This document shows positions 2,478 to 25,456 of a DNA stretch of 29,211 nucleotides, piece by piece. How positions within the stretch are numbered: position 1 is the first letter of the stretch; each line of letters begins with the position of its first letter. The notes beneath the pieces are model-generated. The model was given only the letters and a program-made list of their open reading frames with translations. It was not told the DNA's origin and made no database searches. This stretch comes from a virus: positions 1 to 29,211 of the IMG/VR virus record IMGVR_UViG_3300042806_000219, one strand, 5' to 3'. A program made the translations under genes and the position numbers.

Positions 2478-2537
2478 ACTAATCCGCAAACTATTTTTCT
2501 GACGATTTGCACGGTTCAAACCCGACCAAATGTCTAG

Positions 2538-2622
2538 TGGAGCAGCGGGGAATCGAACCCCGGTGTTGACCGAATCGCTTGCGCGGGTTCTCGGTCAATC
2601 GAATCCATCCTGCCCCAGCTCC
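2538..2622 (-). ncRNA. 85-nt tRNA-like RNA resembling an isolated tmRNA tRNA-like domain (no anticodon arm, no tag-coding module)
   Basis: Minus strand reads GGAGCUG GGGCA GGAU GGAUUCGA UUGACCGA GAACC CGC GCAA GCG AU UCGGUCAA CAC CGGGG UUCGAUU CCCCG CUGCUCC A. There is a 7-position acceptor helix (one U-U mismatch), a canonical T-arm (5 bp plus UUCGAUU loop) and a GGAUUCGA element like the tmRNA D-loop analogue. An 8-bp plus 3-bp helix capped by a GCAA tetraloop sits where the anticodon arm or tmRNA body would be. Confidence 0.6.
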
Positions 2623-6282: not shown

Positions 6283-6313
6283 ACTTCCAATCAACCTACG
6301 AAAGGAAGCACCA

Positions 6314-14959: not shown

Positions 14960-16099
14960 ATGACTGATTCATTTTTGAAGCGTCAGCAGGAGTTGAAAGC
15001 TAACCTCACCATGCAGATTCGCGACGTCATTGACGGTGCCGAGTCTGAGGGTCGTGGCCTTGATGCTGCTGAGCTGACCAAGATTGACCGTATCGAAGCT
15101 GACATTGAAAGCGCACAGCGCTCTATCGAGGTTGCCGAGATGACTGAAGCCCGTTCCGCTGAGTTCGCTCAGGCTGCTCGTGGCTTCTCCCCTGTTGAGG
15201 AAACTAGCCGCGATTCTGCTGAGATTTTCCGTTCGATGTCCCGTGGTGAAATCCGTGGTCACGAGTTCCTGCCTTCTGAGCAGCGCGCACTTGTTTCTTC
15301 GGCTGACACTGTTCCTGTTTCGTTCCTTGACCGTGTTTATGATCTGGCAAAGCTTGTCGGCCCATACCTGGAAACCTCTGAGGTTTTCGTTCGCGATTCT
15401 GGCAACGACTTCCGCATCCCAGTGATGTCGGGTTACAGCACCGCGGCTGAGGTCACGGAAGGTTCTGCTATCGCAGAGTCCAACCCGACCTACACCTCAC
15501 TACTTCTGGACCCAAAAAAGCAGGCCTTCATTGTGCAGCTGTCAAATGAACTGGTCCAGGACAGTGGGTTCGATATTGAGGAGCAGGTTGCACGCCAAGC
15601 TGGTGTCGCAATCGGTACTCGTGCGAACGTTGTAGTCCACGCAGCCGTTACCGCTGTTGCTGGCTCCGGTGTGACCGCTGGAACCACGAACGCATTCACG
15701 ACTGATGACCTGATCACATTGGCTTACAGTGTTGATGGTTTCGCTCGTATGCTTCCTGGCACCGGCTACATGGTGAACACCAAGACTCTTGGTGCGATTC
15801 GCCGCCTGAAGGATAACGATGGCCGTTACATCTACGACCCCGTAGTTGGACAGCCTTCCACCATCCTCGGAATGCCCGTTTACGAGAACCCTGCCGTGGC
15901 TGACATTGCTACTGGTGCCAAGGCTGTGTTCTTCGGACACTGGGGCTCCGTGAAAATTGCGAACGCAGGCGGTCTCCAGGTGAGCGTGAGCAGCGATGCC
16001 TACTTCACCAATGATGTCACGGGCTACAGGTTCGTGTACCGTCTTGGCGCTGGTGTTGCTAACGGTGCCGAGCACATCAAGTACCTGGCTCTTGCATAA
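14960..16099 (+). CDS. Major capsid protein (HK97 fold) with an N-terminal delta-like coiled coil
   Basis: 379 aa, positioned after the protease. N-terminal helical segment LKRQQELKANLTMQIRDVIDGAESEGRGLDAAELTKIDRIEADIESAQRSIEVAE. Confidence 0.85.
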   Translation: MTDSFLKRQQELKANLTMQIRDVIDGAESEGRGLDAAELTKIDRIEADIESAQRSIEVAEMTEARSAEFAQAARGFSPVEETSRDSAEIFRSMSRGEIRGHEFLPSEQRALVSSADTVPVSFLDRVYDLAKLVGPYLETSEVFVRDSGNDFRIPVMSGYSTAAEVTEGSAIAESNPTYTSLLLDPKKQAFIVQLSNELVQDSGFDIEEQVARQAGVAIGTRANVVVHAAVTAVAGSGVTAGTTNAFTTDDLITLAYSVDGFARMLPGTGYMVNTKTLGAIRRLKDNDGRYIYDPVVGQPSTILGMPVYENPAVADIATGAKAVFFGHWGSVKIANAGGLQVSVSSDAYFTNDVTGYRFVYRLGAGVANGAEHIKYLALA

Positions 16100-16121
16100 G
16101 CATTAGTCACAAGGCTGAAGG

Positions 16122-16157
16122 CCCCCGCTGTGTTGTAGGTTTCACGGCGGGGGTTTT
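16122..16157 (+). terminator. Strong intrinsic terminator downstream of the capsid gene
   Basis: CCCCCGCTGTG (16122-16132) pairs with CACGGCGGGGG (16143-16153): 11 bp with one G-U. The loop is 10 nt and TTTT follows. Confidence 0.8.
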
Positions 16158-16160
16158 CGC

Positions 16161-16166
16161 TATTAT
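16161..16166 (+). promoter_or_regulatory. Candidate -10 element (TATTAT) giving a leaderless start for the glycosyltransferase cassette
   Basis: TATTAT at 16161-16166. The A of ATG 16173 is the 7th nt downstream. No SD sequence precedes this ATG and no good -35 is visible. Confidence 0.3.
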
Positions 16167-16172
16167 GTTCGA

Positions 16173-17372
16173 ATGACCTACGAAAAGATTAAGGGTGTTG
16201 TTTCTTTAGCTTCGAATAACCCTGGGGCTCCAACGGGGTATGGGGTGCAGGCTGAGTTTCTGGTGCGTTACATGAAACGTCACAGCATGAATGTGGGTGT
16301 GCTGTCGAACTACGGCCTGGAAGGTGCCATTGGGGAGCATCGCACAGACTTTGGGAGTGTGCCGGTTTACCCTAAAGGTGTTGCACCTTATTCGCAGGAT
16401 GTTTTGACTGTGTGGCATGAGCATCATCGGCAGTCTGCACCAGACCTGAAGCACGCGATTATGACCCTTTATGATGTGTGGGTTTACAACGCTTGGAAGG
16501 ATGAGGTGCCGGTTATTTCGTGGGTGCCGTTGGATCATGTGACGTTGCCTCCTGGTGTTGCCGCGTTTTTGCGCCGCGAGAATGTGAGCCCAGTGGCGAT
16601 GGCCCCGCATGGGAAACGACAGTTGGATAACGCTGCGATAGATTCCGTTTATATTCCTCACGCTGTGAACACGAAGGTGTTTGCTAAGACGCCGAAGATG
16701 ATGGGGCCGGAGGGGATGACTCCGACACGGGAACTGTTGGGTGTGAGCGATGACACGTTCCTGGTTGCGATGGTGGCCGCGAATAAGGCGAACGGGATTC
16801 TGCATCGGAAGGCTTACGATGTGAACTTCATGGCCTTCTCTGCACACCTACAGTCGCACCCTGATTCTCACTTGTATGTTCACGCTGACCCGTCACCTAA
16901 TGTGGGCGGGTTTGATTTAGCGTTGCTTGCACGAGTGTCTGGGATTCCACCAGAGAAGATTACGTTTGCTAACAGGGATCAGTATCGGATTGGGTACAGT
17001 CAGGCTGACCTTGCAGCGTTGTATTCGGCTGCGGATGTTCTGTTGGCCCCGTCTTATGGAGAAGGTTTTGGCGTTCCGCAAATCGAGGCACAATCTGCGG
17101 GCTGTCGAGTCATAGGTTCGGGCTGGGCCGCCTCGCCTGACCTGATTGCCGAGGATGGTTGGTTGGTTGAGGGGCAACCGTTTTGGGATGAACCGCAGAA
17201 AGCTTTCTTCCAGGTGCCTTTGCTTGGTTCGGTTGTGTCAGCGTTGGAGCTGGCCTATAACGCGGAGCGCGGGTTTTCTGCGATGTCCCGTAAGTTTGCG
17301 CTCGACTTTGATGAGGAGAAGGTTTGGGCTGACTACTGGCTGCCGTTCCTGAAGGGGTACTTTGGTGGATAA
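16173..17372 (+). CDS. GT-B fold glycosyltransferase (GT4-like)
   Basis: 399 aa. E-x7-E signature in SYGEGFGVPQIEAQSAGCRVIGS, typical of the GT4/GT1 retaining glycosyltransferase C-terminal domain. Confidence 0.8.
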   Translation: MTYEKIKGVVSLASNNPGAPTGYGVQAEFLVRYMKRHSMNVGVLSNYGLEGAIGEHRTDFGSVPVYPKGVAPYSQDVLTVWHEHHRQSAPDLKHAIMTLYDVWVYNAWKDEVPVISWVPLDHVTLPPGVAAFLRRENVSPVAMAPHGKRQLDNAAIDSVYIPHAVNTKVFAKTPKMMGPEGMTPTRELLGVSDDTFLVAMVAANKANGILHRKAYDVNFMAFSAHLQSHPDSHLYVHADPSPNVGGFDLALLARVSGIPPEKITFANRDQYRIGYSQADLAALYSAADVLLAPSYGEGFGVPQIEAQSAGCRVIGSGWAASPDLIAEDGWLVEGQPFWDEPQKAFFQVPLLGSVVSALELAYNAERGFSAMSRKFALDFDEEKVWADYWLPFLKGYFGG

Positions 17373-17799
17373 GCTCATTGTTTACACTGGTGGCACGTTC
17401 GACCTGTTTCATTCCGGGCACGTCAATTTTCTGTGGAAGTGTTCACAGCTTGGGCGGGTTGTGGTGGCGTTGAACACGGACGAGTTTATTGAGGCGTATA
17501 AGGGTAAGAGCCCGGTGTGTTCGTTCGAGGAGCGTGCCGAGGTTTTGTTGGCGTGCCGTTGGGTTGATGATGTGCTGCCGAATGTTGATGGTGCGGATTC
17601 GCGCACGAGCATTGACATGGTGGGGCCGGACATTATTGCGATTGGTACGGATTGGGCTCGCAAAGATTATTACTTGCAGATGGGGTTCACGCAGGATTGG
17701 TTGGACGAGCGCGACATTTCCCTCATCTATATTCCTTACACTCACAGCATTTCGACCACGAAACTTAAGGCGCGTAGTGCTGACCGTAATCGGGTCTAG
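17362..17799 (+). CDS. tagD: Cytidylyltransferase, TagD-like (glycerol-3-phosphate cytidylyltransferase family)
   Basis: 145 aa. GGTFDLFHSGH (HxGH nucleotidyltransferase motif), NTDEF, RWVDDVLP, GTDW and the C-terminal SISTTKLK (RTxGISTT-like) are colinear with TagD-type enzymes. Starts at TTG 17362 or GTG 17365, overlapping the GT4 stop. Confidence 0.8.
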   Translation: MVDKLIVYTGGTFDLFHSGHVNFLWKCSQLGRVVVALNTDEFIEAYKGKSPVCSFEERAEVLLACRWVDDVLPNVDGADSRTSIDMVGPDIIAIGTDWARKDYYLQMGFTQDWLDERDISLIYIPYTHSISTTKLKARSADRNRV

Positions 17800-18283
17800 C
17801 CCTGACAGGCAGGCTTGGCTTGCTGATTGTTCAGCGTCCTTGGGGCGTGAGCATATTGCGGTTGTGAGTTTTGGTTTCGAGTTGGCGAAGATTCGCTGGG
17901 TGATGGAGAACACGAGTGTGAATCGTTTCCTGTTTCTGCAGGATTCTTGGGTTATCAAGTCTGATAAGTTTTGGGATTTGCTCGAGCAGTTTGAGGGGTC
18001 TGTGGCGTTGACCCGCGACCCGTATTTCTTTGGGTGCTATGCAGGGGTTTATGAGCGGCACGTTATTGACCGGATTGGTGTGCCGGTTGTGACGGATAAA
18101 GCGCACTCGATTCTTTTGGAGATTGACTGGCACCGGCGTTATGTGGAGGCGAGTGGGGAGCCGACAGTGTTGTTCCCTGAGTTGACCGATAAGAACGCTA
18201 CCGATGTGGTGGAGCGTCACGGGCGGAAGAACCTTGTGTTGGAGAATGACCTTGTGGTGAAGTGGAAGGGAACCTGGTGTTAG
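17777..18283 (+). CDS. Hypothetical 168-aa protein inside the glycosylation cassette (possible novel transferase)
   Basis: Track ORF 17489-18283 trimmed to GTG 17777, with AAGG 6 nt upstream. The first ~96 codons of the track ORF overlap tagD out of frame. FLFLQDSW may be a DxD-like acidic motif. No family recognised. Confidence 0.6.
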   Translation: MLTVIGSSPDRQAWLADCSASLGREHIAVVSFGFELAKIRWVMENTSVNRFLFLQDSWVIKSDKFWDLLEQFEGSVALTRDPYFFGCYAGVYERHVIDRIGVPVVTDKAHSILLEIDWHRRYVEASGEPTVLFPELTDKNATDVVERHGRKNLVLENDLVVKWKGTWC

Positions 18284-18945
18284 AGAACCTGATTGTGCCG
18301 GTGCTAAACCGTTACGACTTACTAGATCGCATGGTGTCGAGTATTGACTACCCGGTGAAACATTTACTCATCATTGATAATGGTGCTTCGGATGTGTTGG
18401 AGGATATGGCGATTGATGTTCCGGCTTGTGTGGAGCACACGACCTACCTGCCGATGCCCGCTAACCTCGGGGTGGCAGCGTCATGGAACTTGGGGATTAA
18501 GTCGTTTCCGTATGATGAGCGTTGGTTTATCGCATCGAATGATGTGCGTTTCGAGCCTGGTGCCCTTGGGAGGCTCTCAGAGGCCCGTAGTGACGAGATA
18601 ACCCTCTCTAGTATGTTTCCCCATTGGCAGGCGTTCGCTCTCGGCTATGAGGCTGTGAAGCGTGTGGGTTTGTTTGATGAGGGTTTCTTCCCCGCATATT
18701 TTGAGGACAACGATTATCAGCGCAGGGCGGAGCGTGCTGGGGTTGCGATTCGCCGGCTCGAGGTGCCCATGATCCATGACAACAGTTCGACCATCAGGTC
18801 TGATGAACGGCTGTTGAATCAAAACTCACGCACGTTCACTTCTAACCAGGCACACTTTTCGGAGAAGGTTGCTCGTGACGATTTTGGGGCGGGCTCGTGG
18901 AGTGTGGAACGGCGGAGGCTGAACGGGTGGGAGGCCGGGCGGTAG
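18277..18945 (+). CDS. GT-A fold glycosyltransferase (GT2-like)
   Basis: About 222 aa. LIVPVLNRYDLLDRMVSSI...LLIIDNGASD...NLGVAASWNLGI...ASNDVRF...GFFPAYFEDNDYQRRA follows the GT2 motif order. GTG 18277 lies 5 nt after GAAGGGA; GTG 18262 is an alternative start. Confidence 0.8.
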   Translation: MLENLIVPVLNRYDLLDRMVSSIDYPVKHLLIIDNGASDVLEDMAIDVPACVEHTTYLPMPANLGVAASWNLGIKSFPYDERWFIASNDVRFEPGALGRLSEARSDEITLSSMFPHWQAFALGYEAVKRVGLFDEGFFPAYFEDNDYQRRAERAGVAIRRLEVPMIHDNSSTIRSDERLLNQNSRTFTSNQAHFSEKVARDDFGAGSWSVERRRLNGWEAGR

Positions 18946-18966
18946 AATGGTGGTTGGAGGTTTATT

Positions 18967-19587
18967 TTGGCGATTGTGAATGGGTACGCAACACTTTCCG
19001 AGGTGAAGGCTGCGGCCAGAATCACCGATGACATTGATGACTCGTTGTTGGAAACTGCGATTGAATCGAGTTCCCGCGATATTGATGCTTACACTGAGCG
19101 CGTGTTTTTCAACACGGGTGCTACAGCTGTAACCCGTATTTATATTCCTGAGAACATTTACTTGCTTGAAACGGATGACATCATTGCGGTGACTTCTATC
19201 AAGTCGGACACTACGGGTGAGGGCGGGTTCGACCAGACTTGGGCTTCTACTGATTACCAGTTGGAGCCGTTGAACGGGTTGGCTGGTGGCATTGCTACAC
19301 CTTTCACGAGGGTTCGAGCTGTCGGTGATTATTTGTGGCCGATTTATGAGCCTCGGGACATCAATGCGGGGCAGGCTTCGGTTCAGATTGTGGCACGCTT
19401 CGGCTTTGCTTCTATCCCTAGTGCTATCAAACAAGCCACTATTCTTTCCTCCCTGCGGGCGTATAAGCGTTATGAGTCCCCTACGGGTGTGCTCGGGTTC
19501 TCGGATATGGGTGTGGTTCGGGTTGGCAGGCTTGACCCTGACGTGGAACGGCTGATTCAGCCTTACAGGAAGATTCGTTTCGCGTGA
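18967..19587 (+). CDS. Head-tail connector (gp6-like) protein, unusually long
   Basis: 206 aa. TTG start 7 nt after GGAGG. The N-terminus YATLSEVKAAARITDDIDDSLLETAIESSSRDIDAYT is the classic gp6-like head-tail connector opening. Confidence 0.7.
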   Translation: MAIVNGYATLSEVKAAARITDDIDDSLLETAIESSSRDIDAYTERVFFNTGATAVTRIYIPENIYLLETDDIIAVTSIKSDTTGEGGFDQTWASTDYQLEPLNGLAGGIATPFTRVRAVGDYLWPIYEPRDINAGQASVQIVARFGFASIPSAIKQATILSSLRAYKRYESPTGVLGFSDMGVVRVGRLDPDVERLIQPYRKIRFA

Positions 19588-20411: not shown

Positions 20412-20663
20412 ATGAATCCAATAAACCTACAAGTAACTTTCATTGACGAAACAAGCGTTGAGTGTTCGGCTATTGCAGCGGATTTGATTGCGTTTGAGGC
20501 ACGCTTCGATTTGAGTGTTGCCCGCCTGGGGGATGAAGTGCGTTTGACGCATATGTTCTTTTTGGCGTGGCACGCTCTCAAGCGTACCGGGCACACCACT
20601 GATGAGTTTGAGAAGTGGGTTGAGTCTGTTTCGATGGTGGCTGAGGCTCCCACAAAAAAATAA
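20412..20663 (+). CDS. Tail assembly chaperone (G-like short form)
   Basis: Track ORF 20367-20663 trimmed to ATG 20412, 2 nt after the tail-tube stop. It ends in a poly-A slippery run. Confidence 0.75.
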   Translation: MNPINLQVTFIDETSVECSAIAADLIAFEARFDLSVARLGDEVRLTHMFFLAWHALKRTGHTTDEFEKWVESVSMVAEAPTKK

Positions 20664-24185: not shown

Positions 24186-24395
24186 TTGGCTGGTGCAGGG
24201 TTCAAGGTGTTCCAGGATGGGAATGTCCTTCTTGCCTCGGAGGTGAACACTTTCATCATGGATCAGATGATTATGGTGTTTGCCGATGCTGCGGCTAGGG
24301 ATGCTGCGATTTTGTCCCCGAGTGAGGGGATGTTTGCGTTTTTGAAGGACACAGACAAGTTGACTGTGTATAAGACTAGTTGGGGAGATTTCTAA
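24186..24395 (+). CDS. 69-aa minor tail protein, stand-alone copy of the fibre N-terminal module
   Basis: TTG start 7 nt after AGGAGG. It aligns along its whole length with the first ~70 aa of the next gene (VFADAAARDAAILSPSEGMFAFLKDTDKLTVY versus VFAGTAARGSAIGTAVEGQFAFLKDSDKLTYY). Confidence 0.7.
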   Translation: MAGAGFKVFQDGNVLLASEVNTFIMDQMIMVFADAAARDAAILSPSEGMFAFLKDTDKLTVYKTSWGDF

Positions 24396-25456
24396 TGGCT
24401 GCAGGCGGTTACAAAGAGTTTGTCGCTGGTGAAATTCTTGACGAGGATGACATCAACGATTACCTCATGCAGGGTGTCCTCGTCTTTGCTGGTACTGCTG
24501 CGCGTGGTTCTGCGATTGGGACTGCGGTGGAGGGCCAGTTTGCTTTCTTGAAAGACTCCGACAAGCTCACCTACTATTCCGGTTCGGCGTGGGAGGAATT
24601 GTCTACGACTCCTGGGGCTGCCGTTGTGTCTGGAACTACAGGCTCACCAACTTTAGGAACAGTGTCATCGGGTGGCACGACATACAATGTGTATTCGTTC
24701 ACCGGCTCTGGGTCGATTACTTTCAGCGAGGATGGTTTTGCTGAGCTGCTTGTTATTGGCGGCGGTGGAGGTGGTGGCATCGGGTGGGCTGGCGGCGGCG
24801 GTGCCGGCGGTTATCTACCGATTTCTGAAGCATATTTTCCGGTTGGTACTGCGACAATCACTGTTGGTGCTGGTGGAGCTGGCGCTGACGCTAACGACAA
24901 TGAAGGGCTGTCTGGAAACAACGGCAATTCCTCAAGAATTGGAAGTTTTTATTCGCCTGGTGGTGGGGGTGGGAGTGGCGGTACGCGCCTTTCGACTGGT
25001 CAAGTCCAGAGAGTCAACGGCCGCAACGGTGGTTCAGGCGGTGGCTCTTCAGGCTTTCAAACCAACGCAGCCGGAGCTGGCGGATTAGGTTTCTCTCCTA
25101 TAGGCAACGATGGCGGAAACCAAAGCACAATTAACACTGCCGCTGGTGGTGGAGGCGGTGGCTCCTCGGCTGTTGGAGGCTCAACTTCAACAACAACGGG
25201 TGGTGCTGGTGGAAATGGGACAGCATCTTCAATCACGGGTTCTTCAGTCACTAGAGCCGGCGGAGGCGGAGGGGGGGGAAATCCGACTGGTGGGGCAGCA
25301 GGCTCCGGCGGTGCAACAGCTGGAACCCACAACACGAGTGCCAGCGCCGCAACTGCAAACACTGGCTCAGGTGGCGGCGGAGTCAGCGATTTCTCTAACG
25401 CGTTAACGGGCGGTAATGGTGGTTCAGGTATTGTGATTGTGAGGGTGGCTGTCTAA
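24395..25456 (+). CDS. Glycine-rich tail fibre / minor tail protein
   Basis: Track ORF 24380-25456 trimmed to ATG 24395 (TAATG overlap). It has the conserved N-terminal module, then long GGxGG and Ser/Thr-rich repeats, ending in GGNGGSGIVIVRVAV as in glycine-rich phage tail proteins. Confidence 0.8.
   Translation: MAAGGYKEFVAGEILDEDDINDYLMQGVLVFAGTAARGSAIGTAVEGQFAFLKDSDKLTYYSGSAWEELSTTPGAAVVSGTTGSPTLGTVSSGGTTYNVYSFTGSGSITFSEDGFAELLVIGGGGGGGIGWAGGGGAGGYLPISEAYFPVGTATITVGAGGAGADANDNEGLSGNNGNSSRIGSFYSPGGGGGSGGTRLSTGQVQRVNGRNGGSGGGSSGFQTNAAGAGGLGFSPIGNDGGNQSTINTAAGGGGGGSSAVGGSTSTTTGGAGGNGTASSITGSSVTRAGGGGGGGNPTGGAAGSGGATAGTHNTSASAATANTGSGGGGVSDFSNALTGGNGGSGIVIVRVAV

What the first reader, a model, noticed from the sequence alone, without database searches (positions are those of the whole stretch)
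16161..18945. Glycosyltransferase plus CDP-alcohol cassette between the capsid and connector genes
Seen in sequence: four co-oriented, overlapping genes sit between the capsid-gene terminator (16122-16157) and the head-tail connector gene (18967).
- A GT4-like GT-B glycosyltransferase with E-x7-E (EGFGVPQIE).
- A TagD-like cytidylyltransferase (GGTFDLFHSGH, SISTTKLK).
- A 168-aa protein with no recognisable family.
- A GT2-like GT-A glycosyltransferase (IIDNG, FEDNDY).

Established knowledge: in HK97-like siphoviruses the capsid gene is normally followed directly by connector genes. TagD-family enzymes make CDP-glycerol or related CDP-alcohols, the donors for teichoic-acid-type polymers. Virion O-glycosylation by phage glycosyltransferases has been reported for a few mycobacteriophages (Che8, Corndog, Myrna). 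As far as I know, no cytidylyltransferase was implicated in those cases.

Inference: the phage makes an activated glycerol-phosphate (or similar) donor late in infection. It then builds a phospho-glycan on a virion protein. Candidate acceptors are the Ser/Thr/Gly-rich fibre (24395-25456) and the Ser/Thr-rich C-terminus of the tail tube. Alternatively it remodels host wall polymers. The unknown 168-aa protein could be the missing phosphotransferase. The cassette may have its own leaderless promoter (TATTAT, 7 nt before the ATG).
Basis: partly seen in the sequence, partly recalled or inferred. Interest (0 to 1): 0.8.

Follow-up and report, generated by a model that had tools for sequence, protein, structure and literature searches.

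The report
Variable glycosylation island beside phage capsid gene
A small phage of aquatic actinobacteria carries, right after its capsid gene, four genes with their own promoter (three sugar-transferase-like enzymes plus a nucleotide-activating enzyme); this is one version of a highly variable island present in nearly all its relatives, and it most likely coats the virus particle with a glycan, which no experiment has yet shown.

Summary
Four co-oriented, overlapping genes lie between the capsid-gene terminator and the head-tail adaptor gene: a GT4 glycosyltransferase, a cytidylyltransferase-like enzyme (CT), a 168-aa protein (ORF3) and a GT2.

The 168-aa "unknown" is a minimal GT-A-fold transferase (AF2 pLDDT 91). 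I found its family only in viral or metagenomic DNA, and it never occurs without the CT.

The cassette is not an oddity. In 44 of 45 related contigs a GT4 gene follows the capsid gene. Behind it sits a hypervariable 1.3-3.7 kb glycan island with 15 architectures (GT2, GT17-like, methyltransferases, an RmlD-like enzyme and others). The CT occurs in 13 of 45 and ORF3 in 10 of 45.

The CT keeps its catalytic motifs but fails the curated TagD and HldE thresholds, so CDP-glycerol is only the most economical guess.

The leaderless promoter is well supported: TANNNT lies 6-8 nt before the start codon in 70 of 86 relatives.

Virion glycosylation is the best reading, by analogy with Corndog and Che8. 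It is untested, and the acceptor is unknown. The tail-tube C-terminus suggestion is not supported.

Verdict: a new variant of a known kind; moderate interest.

The parts
14960..16099 (+). HK97-type major capsid protein gene; the conserved left anchor of the island
   Evidence: phrog_10 6.8e-50. 46% identical to the Pontimonas phage phiPsal1 MCP.
16117..16158 (+). Intrinsic-terminator-like hairpin after the capsid gene: 16-bp stem, loop 16133-16142 TTGTAGGTTT, U tract 16154-16157
   Evidence: -33.4 kcal/mol, z -5.9, 0 of 200 shuffles fold as well. A strong GC hairpin (about -28 to -50 kcal/mol), in most cases followed by a T run, is present in all 90 unique relatives, with different stem sequences.
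16161..16166 (+). TATTAT, a -10-like TANNNT box 6 nt before the GT4 ATG; presumed leaderless promoter
   Evidence: TANNNT lies 6-8 nt upstream of the GT4 start in 70 of 86 unique upstream regions, 59 of them at exactly 6 nt. Only 13 have an SD-like leader.
16173..17372 (+). GT4-family (GT-B, retaining type) glycosyltransferase with an E-x7-E motif; the conserved core gene of the island
   Evidence: PF13692 40.7 bits and PF00534 31.1 bits, both above cut-off. phrog_2170 5.7e-35. PDB sequence hits to MshA, PimB and sucrose-phosphate synthase. Present directly after the MCP gene in 44 of 45 relatives.
16175..16183 (+). GACCTACGA at codons 1-4 of GT4, complementary (with one G-U) to the terminator loop
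   Evidence: Loop-to-start complementarity is significant across 88 loci. The motif keeps its place at the start region even where it is non-coding (L023, L030, L038, L042).
17362..17799 (+). Cytidylyltransferase-like nucleotidyltransferase (HxGH class; TagD/ECT/CCT/Fom1-CyTase branch); substrate unresolved
   Evidence: PF01467 66.1 bits. TIGR01518 81.9 bits, below its cut-off of 165.4; TIGR02199 69.1 bits, below 181.5. PDB sequence hits: ECT 2e-24, TagD 1e-17, Fom1 CyTase 4e-15. AF2 pLDDT 82; Foldseek best hits 5x3d at 1.9e-10 and 1coz at 1.3e-9. Invariant residues include H17, H20, K47, R58, D97, W98, S131 and T133.
17777..18283 (+). ORF3: 168-aa minimal GT-A-fold transferase-like protein with conserved FLFLQDSW (QDS in place of DxD); a family found so far only in viral or metagenomic DNA
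   Evidence: No Pfam, PHROG or NCBIfam hit. 151 homologues. AF2 pLDDT 91.4, pTM 0.88. Foldseek PDB hits are GT-A glycosyltransferases: WrtF 1.9e-4, STIV A197 5e-4, TarS, SpsA, 6p61 with TMq 0.57. BFVD hits are viral GT-A proteins, including a Che8 GT. 318 clusters in a profile search, some fused to a methyltransferase or a GT2 domain. None in 50,697 phage records or in two pattern scans of 185,579 genomes.
18262..18945 (+). GT2-family (GT-A) glycosyltransferase
   Evidence: PF00535 26.5 bits, cut-off 23.3. phrog_29879 3.7e-56. 51% identical to the phiPsal1 GT2 and 33% to S-CBS4 gp15.
18943..18966 (+). TAGAAT (-10-like, 18943-18948) and GGAGG (SD, 18956-18960) before the adaptor gene; right boundary of the island
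   Evidence: Read from the sequence. It resembles the MCP-to-adaptor spacer of the island-less relative L123, GGGTAGAATG...GAGGAG...ATG.
18967..19587 (+). Head-tail adaptor gene; the conserved right anchor
   Evidence: phrog_442 7.8e-20. Conserved after the island in the relatives.

Best explanation
The four genes are one allele of a hypervariable glycosylation island that sits between the capsid and adaptor genes in a large family of roughly 30-kb siphoviruses of aquatic actinobacteria (the phiPsal1-like family).

Shown:
- The island is a separate unit. It is bounded on the left by the capsid-gene terminator plus a leaderless-type -10 box, and on the right by the adaptor gene's own -10/SD.
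- Its first gene, GT4, is nearly universal in the family. The genes behind it are swapped freely between relatives.

Inferred:
- The soluble GT4 puts the first sugar on a virion protein in the cytoplasm.
- The CT activates a small phosphorylated compound with CTP. sn-Glycerol-3-phosphate is the most economical candidate, because the phage carries no other precursor enzyme.
- The GT-A-fold ORF3, which never occurs without the CT, transfers that activated group.
- GT2 extends or caps the glycan.
- The product would be a variable surface glycan (a 'phage serotype') on capsids and/or tails, as shown experimentally for the mycobacteriophages Corndog, Che8 and Myrna.
For: Gene identities.

Synteny:
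- The same four genes lie between the MCP and adaptor genes in about 80 ORF3-anchored contigs, in at least four gene orders.
- In 45 capsid-anchored contigs, GT4 follows the MCP gene in 44. The island measures 1.3-3.7 kb and has 15 architectures.
- Accessory genes are all of glycan type: GT2, GT17-like, TOD1/MUCI70-like, MptE-like, RmlD-like and methyltransferases.
- ORF3 occurs only with the CT: 10 and 13 of 45.

Own promoter.

Soluble acidic proteins without hydrophobic segments: maximum Kyte-Doolittle(19) 1.42.

No integrase or lysogeny gene was seen among the annotated ORFs. The related phiPsal1 was judged lytic.

Precedents:
- Corndog has an O-methyltransferase plus three GTs inside the head module.
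- Che8, Corndog and Myrna virions are glycosylated by phage GTs.
- Homologous GT4+GT2(+MTase) modules sit in the head modules of phiPsal1, S-CBS4 and Mae-JY09.
Against: - There is no experimental evidence for any glycan on these virions, and no acceptor could be identified. The MCP of the island-less relative L123 does not differ in any obvious segment. The tail-tube C-terminus is conserved regardless of island content.
- There is no sequence-level homology to the mycobacteriophage GTs.
- The CT is not a TagD equivalog. It carries an 11-residue insertion relative to TagD near the substrate side.
- No known CDP-alcohol phosphotransferase fold (TagF, LicD) is present, and GT-A enzymes are not known to me to use CDP-glycerol.
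- The CT occurs without ORF3 in 3 of 45 loci.
- In large Streptomyces and Arthrobacter phages the CT homologue and its partner GTs lie among DNA-metabolism genes, not structural genes.
Confidence: 0.5

Rival explanations
1. Host-envelope remodelling. The enzymes act on lipid-linked or wall-linked host glycopolymers (teichoic-acid-like or rhamnan-type). The effect would be to change the receptor during infection: exclusion of superinfecting phages, or less loss of progeny on cell debris.
For: - TagD-class enzymes normally feed wall polymers (established knowledge). JGI's automatic name for the homologues is glycerol-3-phosphate cytidylyltransferase.
- Authors of freshwater actinophage papers proposed cell-wall modification as one role for phage GTs.
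- Wall GTs are often peripheral proteins without TM helices, so one search does not exclude this reading.
Against: - The phage appears lytic, with no lysogeny module.
- The island's position is fixed between the capsid and adaptor genes across the family. Known host-glycan conversion genes are morons near attachment or lysogeny regions (established knowledge).
- No flippase, polymerase or TagF/LicD-type gene is present.
Confidence: 0.2
2. DNA hypermodification. The GTs and the CT attach sugars (for example a heptose or another activated group) to modified bases of the phage DNA, to evade restriction.
For: - A phage cytidylyltransferase-like enzyme, together with a GT-B GT and a kinase/phosphatase, heptosylates 5hmC in DNA.
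- The 50-55% identical CT homologues of Streptomyces and Arthrobacter phages sit directly after two GTs, among replication and nucleotide-metabolism genes.
- DNA protection has been proposed for actinophage GTs.
Against: - No base-hydroxymethylating enzyme (dCMP/dUMP hydroxymethylase, C5-MTase, TET/5mYOX) was found among the window ORFs scanned, although several small ORFs have no annotation.
- The location is in the head module, next to the capsid gene.
- The accessory genes in relatives (O-methyltransferases, GT17-like, RmlD-like) look like glycan tailoring of the oligosaccharide type.
Confidence: 0.1
3. Same target (virion glycan) but different chemistry. The CT-like enzyme makes a nucleotide sugar such as ADP- or CDP-heptose, or another NDP-linked donor, rather than a CDP-alcohol. 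ORF3 (or a GT2 variant) is then an ordinary sugar transferase that uses it.
For: - ORF3 has a GT-A sugar-transferase fold.
- PHROG names the CT family after HldE. TIGR02199 scores 69 bits, close to TagD's 82. HldC is among the structural hits (5xf2, 9e-8).
- In L076 the CT-ORF3 pair lies near a weak GT9 (heptosyltransferase) hit and a cupin.
- The CT works with a heptose pathway in another phage system.
Against: - The phage has no isomerase, kinase or phosphatase to make heptose-1-phosphate.
- The best sequence and structure matches are CTP-dependent phospho-alcohol/phosphonate enzymes.
- The RWVDDV and KGK motifs resemble the CCT/ECT/TagD class.
Confidence: 0.2

Closest known systems
Mycobacteriophage virion O-glycosylation systems (Corndog gp35-38; Che8 and Myrna GTs; Freeman et al. 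2023, cited through)
   Same: Phage-encoded soluble GTs. In Corndog, an O-methyltransferase plus GTs are embedded in the head-morphogenesis operon. The hosts are Actinobacteria. The proposed product is a glycan coat on the capsid and tail tube. The ORF3 model resembles a Che8 GT at fold level (TMq 0.49).
   Different: No sequence homology was detected at E 1e-5. Here the island lies between the capsid and adaptor genes, has its own leaderless promoter, is hypervariable across a family, and in about 30% of members includes a cytidylyltransferase-like enzyme. No such enzyme is listed for Corndog. No glycan has been demonstrated.
Pontimonas phage phiPsal1 (MG835450), genes 010-012
   Same: The closest deposited phage: MCP 46%, GT4 51% and GT2 51% identity. 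A GT island occupies the same position, MCP - GT4 - ... - GT2 - neck.
   Different: phiPsal1 has an antisense SAM methyltransferase where the window has CT + ORF3. The island was annotated but never discussed.
TagD / TarD, CTP:glycerol-3-phosphate cytidylyltransferase
   Same: HxGH nucleotidyltransferase fold; conserved His, Lys, Arg and ISTT residues; similar size. 36% identity in the structural alignment to 1coz, E 1.3e-9.
   Different: Scores half the curated equivalog cut-off. RTEG is replaced by YTHS. An 11-residue insertion (KDYYLQMGFTQDWLDER region) is shared with Fom1 CyTase and with the actinophage homologues. No TagB/TagF partner is present.
Phage DNA-glycan hypermodification clusters with a cytidylyltransferase (contig 53, bioRxiv 10.1101/2023.12.21.572611)
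   Same: A phage-encoded CTP_transf-like enzyme works together with a GT.
   Different: That system needs 5hmC-forming enzymes and a kinase/phosphatase, and it targets DNA. None of these were found in the window.
Minimal viral GT-A glycosyltransferases (STIV A197, mimivirus R699) and bacterial GT-A enzymes (WrtF, TarS, SpsA)
   Same: ORF3 shares the GT-A Rossmann-like fold and small size. The literature links A197 and R699 to virion glycosylation (my own knowledge).
   Different: TM-scores are only 0.45-0.57, with 12-15% identity. DxD is replaced by QDS. ORF3 forms its own sequence family of about 318 clusters.

Membership tests
GT4 / Pfam Glycos_transf_1 (gene 16173-17372) | Profile match above the curated cut-off | tested here: met
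   PF13692 40.7 bits (cut-off 27) and PF00534 31.1 bits (cut-off 26.4).
GT4 / Pfam Glycos_transf_1 (gene 16173-17372) | E-x7-E motif in the C-terminal Rossmann domain | tested here: met
   EGFGVPQIE in the translation, inside the Pfam-matched stretch 273-333.
GT4 / Pfam Glycos_transf_1 (gene 16173-17372) | Two-domain GT-B fold | not tested
   No model was made. The PHROG alignment spans residues 9-339.
TagD (glycerol-3-phosphate cytidylyltransferase), gene 17362-17799 | NCBIfam equivalog TIGR01518 at or above 165.4 bits | tested here: not met
   81.9 bits.
TagD (glycerol-3-phosphate cytidylyltransferase), gene 17362-17799 | HxGH, catalytic Lys, and the RTEGISTT motif | tested here: inconclusive
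   HSGH and K47 (aligned with TagD K44) are invariant. ISTT is kept, but RTEG is YTHS, as in Fom1 CyTase (YTPG).
TagD (glycerol-3-phosphate cytidylyltransferase), gene 17362-17799 | Forms CDP-glycerol from CTP + sn-glycerol-3-phosphate | not testable with these tools
   Needs an enzyme assay.
HldE domain II / HldC (heptose-1-phosphate adenylyltransferase) | NCBIfam TIGR02199 at or above 181.5 bits | tested here: not met
   69.1 bits.
HldE domain II / HldC (heptose-1-phosphate adenylyltransferase) | Companion genes for heptose-1-phosphate supply (isomerase, kinase, phosphatase) | tested here: not met
   None among the window ORFs scanned. Host supply is unknown.
Cytidylyltransferase-like superfamily PF01467 | Profile match above the cut-off, and the fold | tested here: met
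   66.1 bits (cut-off 21). AF2 model pLDDT 82; 95 PDB matches at E<=1e-3, the 50 listed all of this fold.
GT-A fold glycosyltransferases (ORF3, 17777-18283) | GT-A Rossmann-like fold | tested here: met
   Model pLDDT 91.4. Foldseek probability 1.0 to many GT-A enzymes, best E 1.9e-4, TMq up to 0.57; BFVD likewise.
GT-A fold glycosyltransferases (ORF3, 17777-18283) | DxD metal-binding motif | tested here: not met
   The conserved motif is FLFLQDSW. Only D56 is invariant.
GT-A fold glycosyltransferases (ORF3, 17777-18283) | Membership of a curated GT sequence family | tested here: not met
   No Pfam, PHROG or NCBIfam hit. hhalign against the actinophage GTs next to CT: probability below 3%.
GT2 / PF00535 (gene 18262-18945) | Profile match above the cut-off | tested here: met
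   26.5 bits (cut-off 23.3); phrog_29879 3.7e-56.
Phage virion-glycosylation system (Corndog/Che8 type) | Phage-encoded GTs within or beside the virion structural genes | tested here: met
   Corndog layout.
Phage virion-glycosylation system (Corndog/Che8 type) | Glycans covalently attached to capsid or tail proteins | not testable with these tools
   Needs mass spectrometry or glycan staining of virions.
Phage virion-glycosylation system (Corndog/Che8 type) | Homology to the characterised mycobacteriophage GTs | tested here: not met
   tblastn of GT4, ORF3 and GT2 against 50,697 phage records finds no mycobacteriophage. There is only fold-level similarity.
Phage DNA glycosyl-hypermodification cluster | Enzyme that makes the hydroxymethylated base (hydroxymethylase, or C5-MTase + TET) | tested here: not met
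   Not found in the ORFs scanned. Several small ORFs remain unannotated.
Lysogenic-conversion glycan modification (Gtr / TarP type) | Temperate phage with an integrase; membrane-associated components | tested here: not met
   No integrase among the annotated ORFs. No hydrophobic segment in the four proteins. phiPsal1 was judged lytic.

The most novel reading that the evidence does not exclude
Abundant aquatic actinophages carry an O-antigen-like, rapidly exchanging 'serotype island' that coats their virions with diverse glycans. In the CT-bearing alleles, a virus-only minimal GT-A enzyme (ORF3) transfers a CDP-activated polyol-phosphate (or similar) onto a protein-linked glycan. That would be a GT-A-fold CDP-alcohol phosphotransferase, a chemistry not known for this fold, and the first phospho-glycan on a phage particle. 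Expression would be tuned by pairing between the loop of the capsid-gene terminator and the first codons of the leaderless GT4 mRNA.
Probability: 0.12. Interest if true: 0.8.

Novelty: new variant of a known kind. Interest (0 to 1): 0.5.

Why it matters
Virion glycosylation by phage-encoded enzymes has been demonstrated only in a few mycobacteriophages. If this island does the same, glycan coats would be the norm in a widespread family of environmental actinophages: at least 557 capsid relatives in IMG/VR. The coats would also be highly polymorphic.

That would point to selection on the phage surface outside any antibody context, for example by grazers, adsorption to non-host material, host surface nucleases or proteases, or particle stability.

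The CT + ORF3 module is a concrete, clonable pair in which to look for new donor and transferase chemistry.

The terminator, leaderless promoter and loop-complement arrangement is a compact model for how a phage insulates and doses an accessory operon placed inside its structural gene block.

Tried and rejected
- DNA-level searches of the cassette against 50,697 phage records, both near and distant modes: no match. All comparisons therefore had to be made at protein level.
- The consensus terminator/promoter scan found neither the hairpin (its loop is too long for the tool) nor the -10 box (there is no -35). Both were established by folding and by comparison instead.
- Cellular homologues of ORF3 were sought with two scans of 185,579 genomes: none found. 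The absence rests on strict patterns only.
- I tested whether the GTs next to the CT in Streptomyces phages are remote ORF3 or GT2 homologues, by BLASTP and hhalign: no.
- Tail-tube C-terminus as a special Ser/Thr acceptor tail: rejected. It is a conserved segment present in all relatives, including the island-less L123.
- An MCP segment specific to island-bearing phages: none seen.
- Freeman et al. 2023 (PMC10527164) is not held. Its findings are cited only through secondary papers.
- The CT substrate could not be resolved by NCBIfam, PDB sequence search, structure search or motif analysis.

Full report
**1. What is there**

The window looks like a near-complete ~29-kb siphovirus genome. It has replication genes, RusA, an HNH endonuclease, TerS/TerL, portal, prohead protease, an HK97-type major capsid protein (MCP), adaptor, tail terminator, major tail protein, tape measure, a Gly-rich fibre and an M23 endolysin. 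No integrase was seen.

Four + strand genes lie between the MCP gene (14960-16099) and the adaptor gene (18967-19587). They overlap by 11, 23 and 22 nt:
- 16173-17372, 399 aa
- 17362-17799, 145 aa
- 17777-18283, 168 aa
- 18262-18945, 227 aa

Pfam places gene 1 in Glycos_transf_1 (GT4), gene 2 in CTP_transf_like and gene 4 in Glycos_transf_2, each above the curated cut-off. Gene 3 has no hit in Pfam, PHROGs or NCBIfam. None of the four proteins has a hydrophobic segment, and all are acidic.

**2. The 168-aa protein (ORF3)**

It is a real, conserved gene. There are 151 homologues; those listed are 60-95% identical and 135-205 aa long, most of them 168. The N-terminal 21 residues, which JGI gene calls often cut off (147-aa versions), are conserved and well modelled.

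An AlphaFold2 model (pLDDT 91.4, pTM 0.88) matches GT-A-fold glycosyltransferases in the PDB: WrtF, STIV A197, mimivirus R699, TarS, SpsA, B4GalT1 and 6p61. The best E-value is 1.9e-4 and TMq is 0.45-0.57. It also matches many viral GT-A proteins in BFVD, including a Che8 glycosyltransferase.

The conserved motif FLFLQDSW occupies the place of DxD.

An exhaustive profile search finds only 318 clusters at E<=1e-3. A few are fused to a Methyltransf_24 domain or a GT2 domain. I found no member in 50,697 phage records, nor in two pattern scans of 185,579 prokaryotic genomes.

So the 'unknown' is a third transferase-like enzyme. Its sequence family has so far been seen only in viral or metagenomic DNA.

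**3. The cytidylyltransferase-like protein (CT)**

HxGH, K47 (aligned with TagD K44), R58, the D97/W98 pair and ISTT are invariant in 16 diverse relatives. It is probably active.

It does not reach the curated equivalog cut-offs: TagD 81.9 against 165.4 bits, HldE domain II 69.1 against 181.5.

The best PDB sequence hits are human ECT, B. subtilis TagD and the Fom1 CyTase domain. The model (pLDDT 82) is closest to Fom1 CyTase (1.9e-10) and TagD (1.3e-9). CCT, ECT and HldC follow within two to three orders of magnitude.

It shares an insertion and a YT-x-x-ISTT variant with Fom1 CyTase and with the actinophage homologues.

The substrate is therefore unresolved. Glycerol-3-phosphate is favoured only because the phage carries no enzyme to make any rarer phospho-substrate.

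**4. Comparative context**

The cassette has no DNA-level match in deposited phages.

The nearest deposited genome is Pontimonas phage phiPsal1 (MCP 46% identity). At the same place it has GT4, an antisense SAM methyltransferase and GT2. Its authors did not discuss the phage further.

Eighty IMG/VR contigs found through ORF3 carry GT4, CT, ORF3 and GT2 between the MCP and adaptor genes. They occur in at least four different orders, sometimes with extra genes.

A sample anchored on the capsid, which is unbiased with respect to the cassette, gave at least 557 relatives, of which 80 were fetched. Forty-five of these span the full MCP-to-adaptor interval:
- GT4 follows the MCP gene in 44.
- The interval measures 1.3-3.7 kb and shows 15 architectures.
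- The CT is in 13 and ORF3 in 10, never without the CT.
- One contig (L123) has no island at all.

The exchangeable genes are all of glycan type: GT2 variants, a GT17-like protein, a TOD1/MUCI70-like protein, an MptE/Maf-like protein, an RmlD-like reductase, several methyltransferases, and in one locus a protein that looks like a radical-SAM enzyme from its cysteine motif.

Homologous GT4+GT2 pairs also sit in the head modules of Synechococcus phage S-CBS4 (with a methyltransferase) and Microcystis phage Mae-JY09. Corndog has an O-methyltransferase and three GTs between portal and protease.

The 'capsid gene followed directly by connector genes' expectation therefore does not hold for this lineage. 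The finding is one allele of a family-wide hypervariable island.

**5. Expression signals**

A strong hairpin follows the MCP stop (16117-16158; -33.4 kcal/mol, z -5.9). All 90 unique relatives have one there, in most cases followed by a T run, with differing stems.

A TANNNT box follows it (TATTAT, 16161-16166). It ends 6-8 nt before the GT4 start codon in 70 of 86 unique relatives. The remainder carry SD-type leaders.

The adaptor gene has its own TAGAAT plus GGAGG (18943-18960). This resembles the MCP-to-adaptor spacer of the island-less L123.

The island thus behaves as an inserted, self-promoted unit. Its timing (early or late) is not known.

**6. Function**

Virion glycosylation is the best-supported reading, at a confidence of about 0.5. 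The reasons are:
- the fixed position next to the capsid gene;
- soluble enzymes;
- an apparently lytic phage;
- diversification of the O-antigen-like kind;
- the experimental precedent in mycobacteriophages.

It is not demonstrated, and I could not identify an acceptor. The tail-tube C-terminus is a conserved segment also present in L123. The MCP of L123 shows no distinguishing segment.

The strict dependence of ORF3 on the CT suggests that ORF3 uses the CT's product. However, the CT also occurs with only a divergent GT2 or another protein (L128, L137, L131).

Rivals:
- Host-wall remodelling, about 0.2.
- DNA hypermodification, about 0.1. A phage CT plus GT heptosylates 5hmC. The 50-55% identical CT homologues of Streptomyces and Arthrobacter phages follow two GTs among DNA-metabolism genes. 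Against this, no base-hydroxymethylating enzyme was found here.
- Within the virion reading, a nucleotide-sugar product rather than a CDP-alcohol product (about 0.2).

**7. Novelty and score**

GTs in freshwater actinophages have been noted before, but only with generic guesses about their role. The island structure, the CT/ORF3 module and ORF3's fold have not been described in anything I could search.

It is a new variant of a known kind (phage-encoded virion glycosylation). It is common rather than unique, and uncharacterised. Interest 0.5.

**8. Side observations**

(a) The terminator loop TTGTAGGT(T) is complementary to (A)ACCTAC(A/G)A at codons 2-4 of GT4 (16175-16183).
- Across 88 loci the mean longest complement is 7.28 nt, against 5.59 for shuffled loops (maximum 6.02 in 200 shuffles). 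A complement of 7 nt or more occurs in 51 loci, against a mean of 19 (maximum 28).
- In one clade the complement sits in the 5' leader overlapping the ATG, where the protein N-terminus differs. There are also matched variants: TCGTAGGT with ACCTACGA, and TGCGTAGG with CCTACGCA.
- The 8-mer ACCTACRA occurs 6 times in the window against 1.07 expected. Two further copies lie at gene starts, at 6294 and 20425.

(b) At 2535-2616 (-) there is an 82-nt mini-tmRNA consisting only of the tRNA-like domain, with a G3:U70 pair. It scores 48.3 bits against Rfam RF00023 (gathering cut-off 47). Ten of the 11 other viral contigs that carry the same sequence pattern have similar 82-83-nt genes, one of them inside a tRNA array.

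Noticed in passing
window 16133-16141 (terminator loop) and 16175-16183 (GT4 codons 1-4); also 6294-6301 and 20425-20432: The loop of the capsid-gene terminator (TTGTAGGTT) is complementary to ACCTAC(A/G)A at the very start of the GT4 gene. The complementarity is conserved across relatives well above shuffled controls, and it holds even where the target is non-coding or about 570 nt away. The 8-mer ACCTACRA occurs 6 times in the window against 1.07 expected, twice more at gene starts. It could be an RNA loop-to-start pairing (a pseudoknot, or antisense in trans) or an inverted-repeat protein-binding site. It remains unexplained.
   Followed up: partly
window 2535-2616 (- strand): An 82-nt 'mini-tmRNA' consisting only of the tRNA-like domain: acceptor stem with G3:U70, T arm CCGGGGUUCGAUUCCCCG and a 3' ACUA, with a 22-nt stem-loop in place of the mRNA/pseudoknot part. 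Rfam RF00023 gives 48.3 bits (gathering cut-off 47), and a TATACT box lies 8 nt upstream. ARAGORN calls nothing. Of 11 IMG/VR contigs that carry the same sequence pattern (L164-L174), ten have similar 82-83-nt genes at 55.7-76 bits (no hit was listed for L164), one of them inside a tRNA array.
   Followed up: partly
loci L083-L159 and L002-L081, interval between the MCP and adaptor genes: Across the phage family the island is hypervariable: 15 architectures in 45 contigs. Exchangeable genes include GT2 variants, GT17-like, TOD1/MUCI70-like, MptE/Maf-like, an RmlD-like reductase, methyltransferases, a protein resembling a radical-SAM enzyme by its cysteine motif (L078, not scanned against any library), a possible P-loop protein (L117), and an HNH endonuclease inside the island (L026).
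   Followed up: partly
window 17777-17839: Many JGI/IMG gene calls for ORF3 homologues are 147 aa, starting at the internal TTG (window 17840). That drops a conserved, well-modelled N-terminal beta-alpha unit. The 168-aa form, which overlaps the CT gene, is the better call.
   Followed up: yes
L082 (Streptomyces phage Coruscant), L162 (Belfort), L163 (Arthrobacter phage Talia1610): A conserved GT-GT-CT module: the GT directly before the CT is 44-68% identical between these phages, and the CT is 50-55% identical to the window's. The module lies among DNA-metabolism genes of large actinophages. Its function is unknown, and it bears on the DNA-modification rival.
   Followed up: partly
window 18943-18966 and L123 1431-1476: The adaptor gene keeps its own TAGAAT -10-like box and GGAGG SD, and the spacer resembles that of the island-less relative. 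This suggests the island is an insertion between the capsid terminator and the adaptor promoter.
   Followed up: partly
L076 2788-7867: A 24-kb viral contig carries the CT-ORF3 pair in a larger glycan cluster: GT2, a weak GT9 (heptosyltransferase-like) hit, a 216-aa unknown, a cupin and an FkbM methyltransferase. None of the window's MCP, GT4 or adaptor genes was detected in the stretch fetched.
   Followed up: no
window 24380-25456: A fibre-like protein with 28% Gly and 21% Ser/Thr. The homologous gene in a related contig carries Pfam Gly_rich_2. It is a possible but untested glycan acceptor.
   Followed up: no
L171 5916-6012 (- strand): A Pistol ribozyme hit (50.7 bits, gathering cut-off 34.5) in an unrelated viral contig that also carries a mini-tmRNA.
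   Followed up: no
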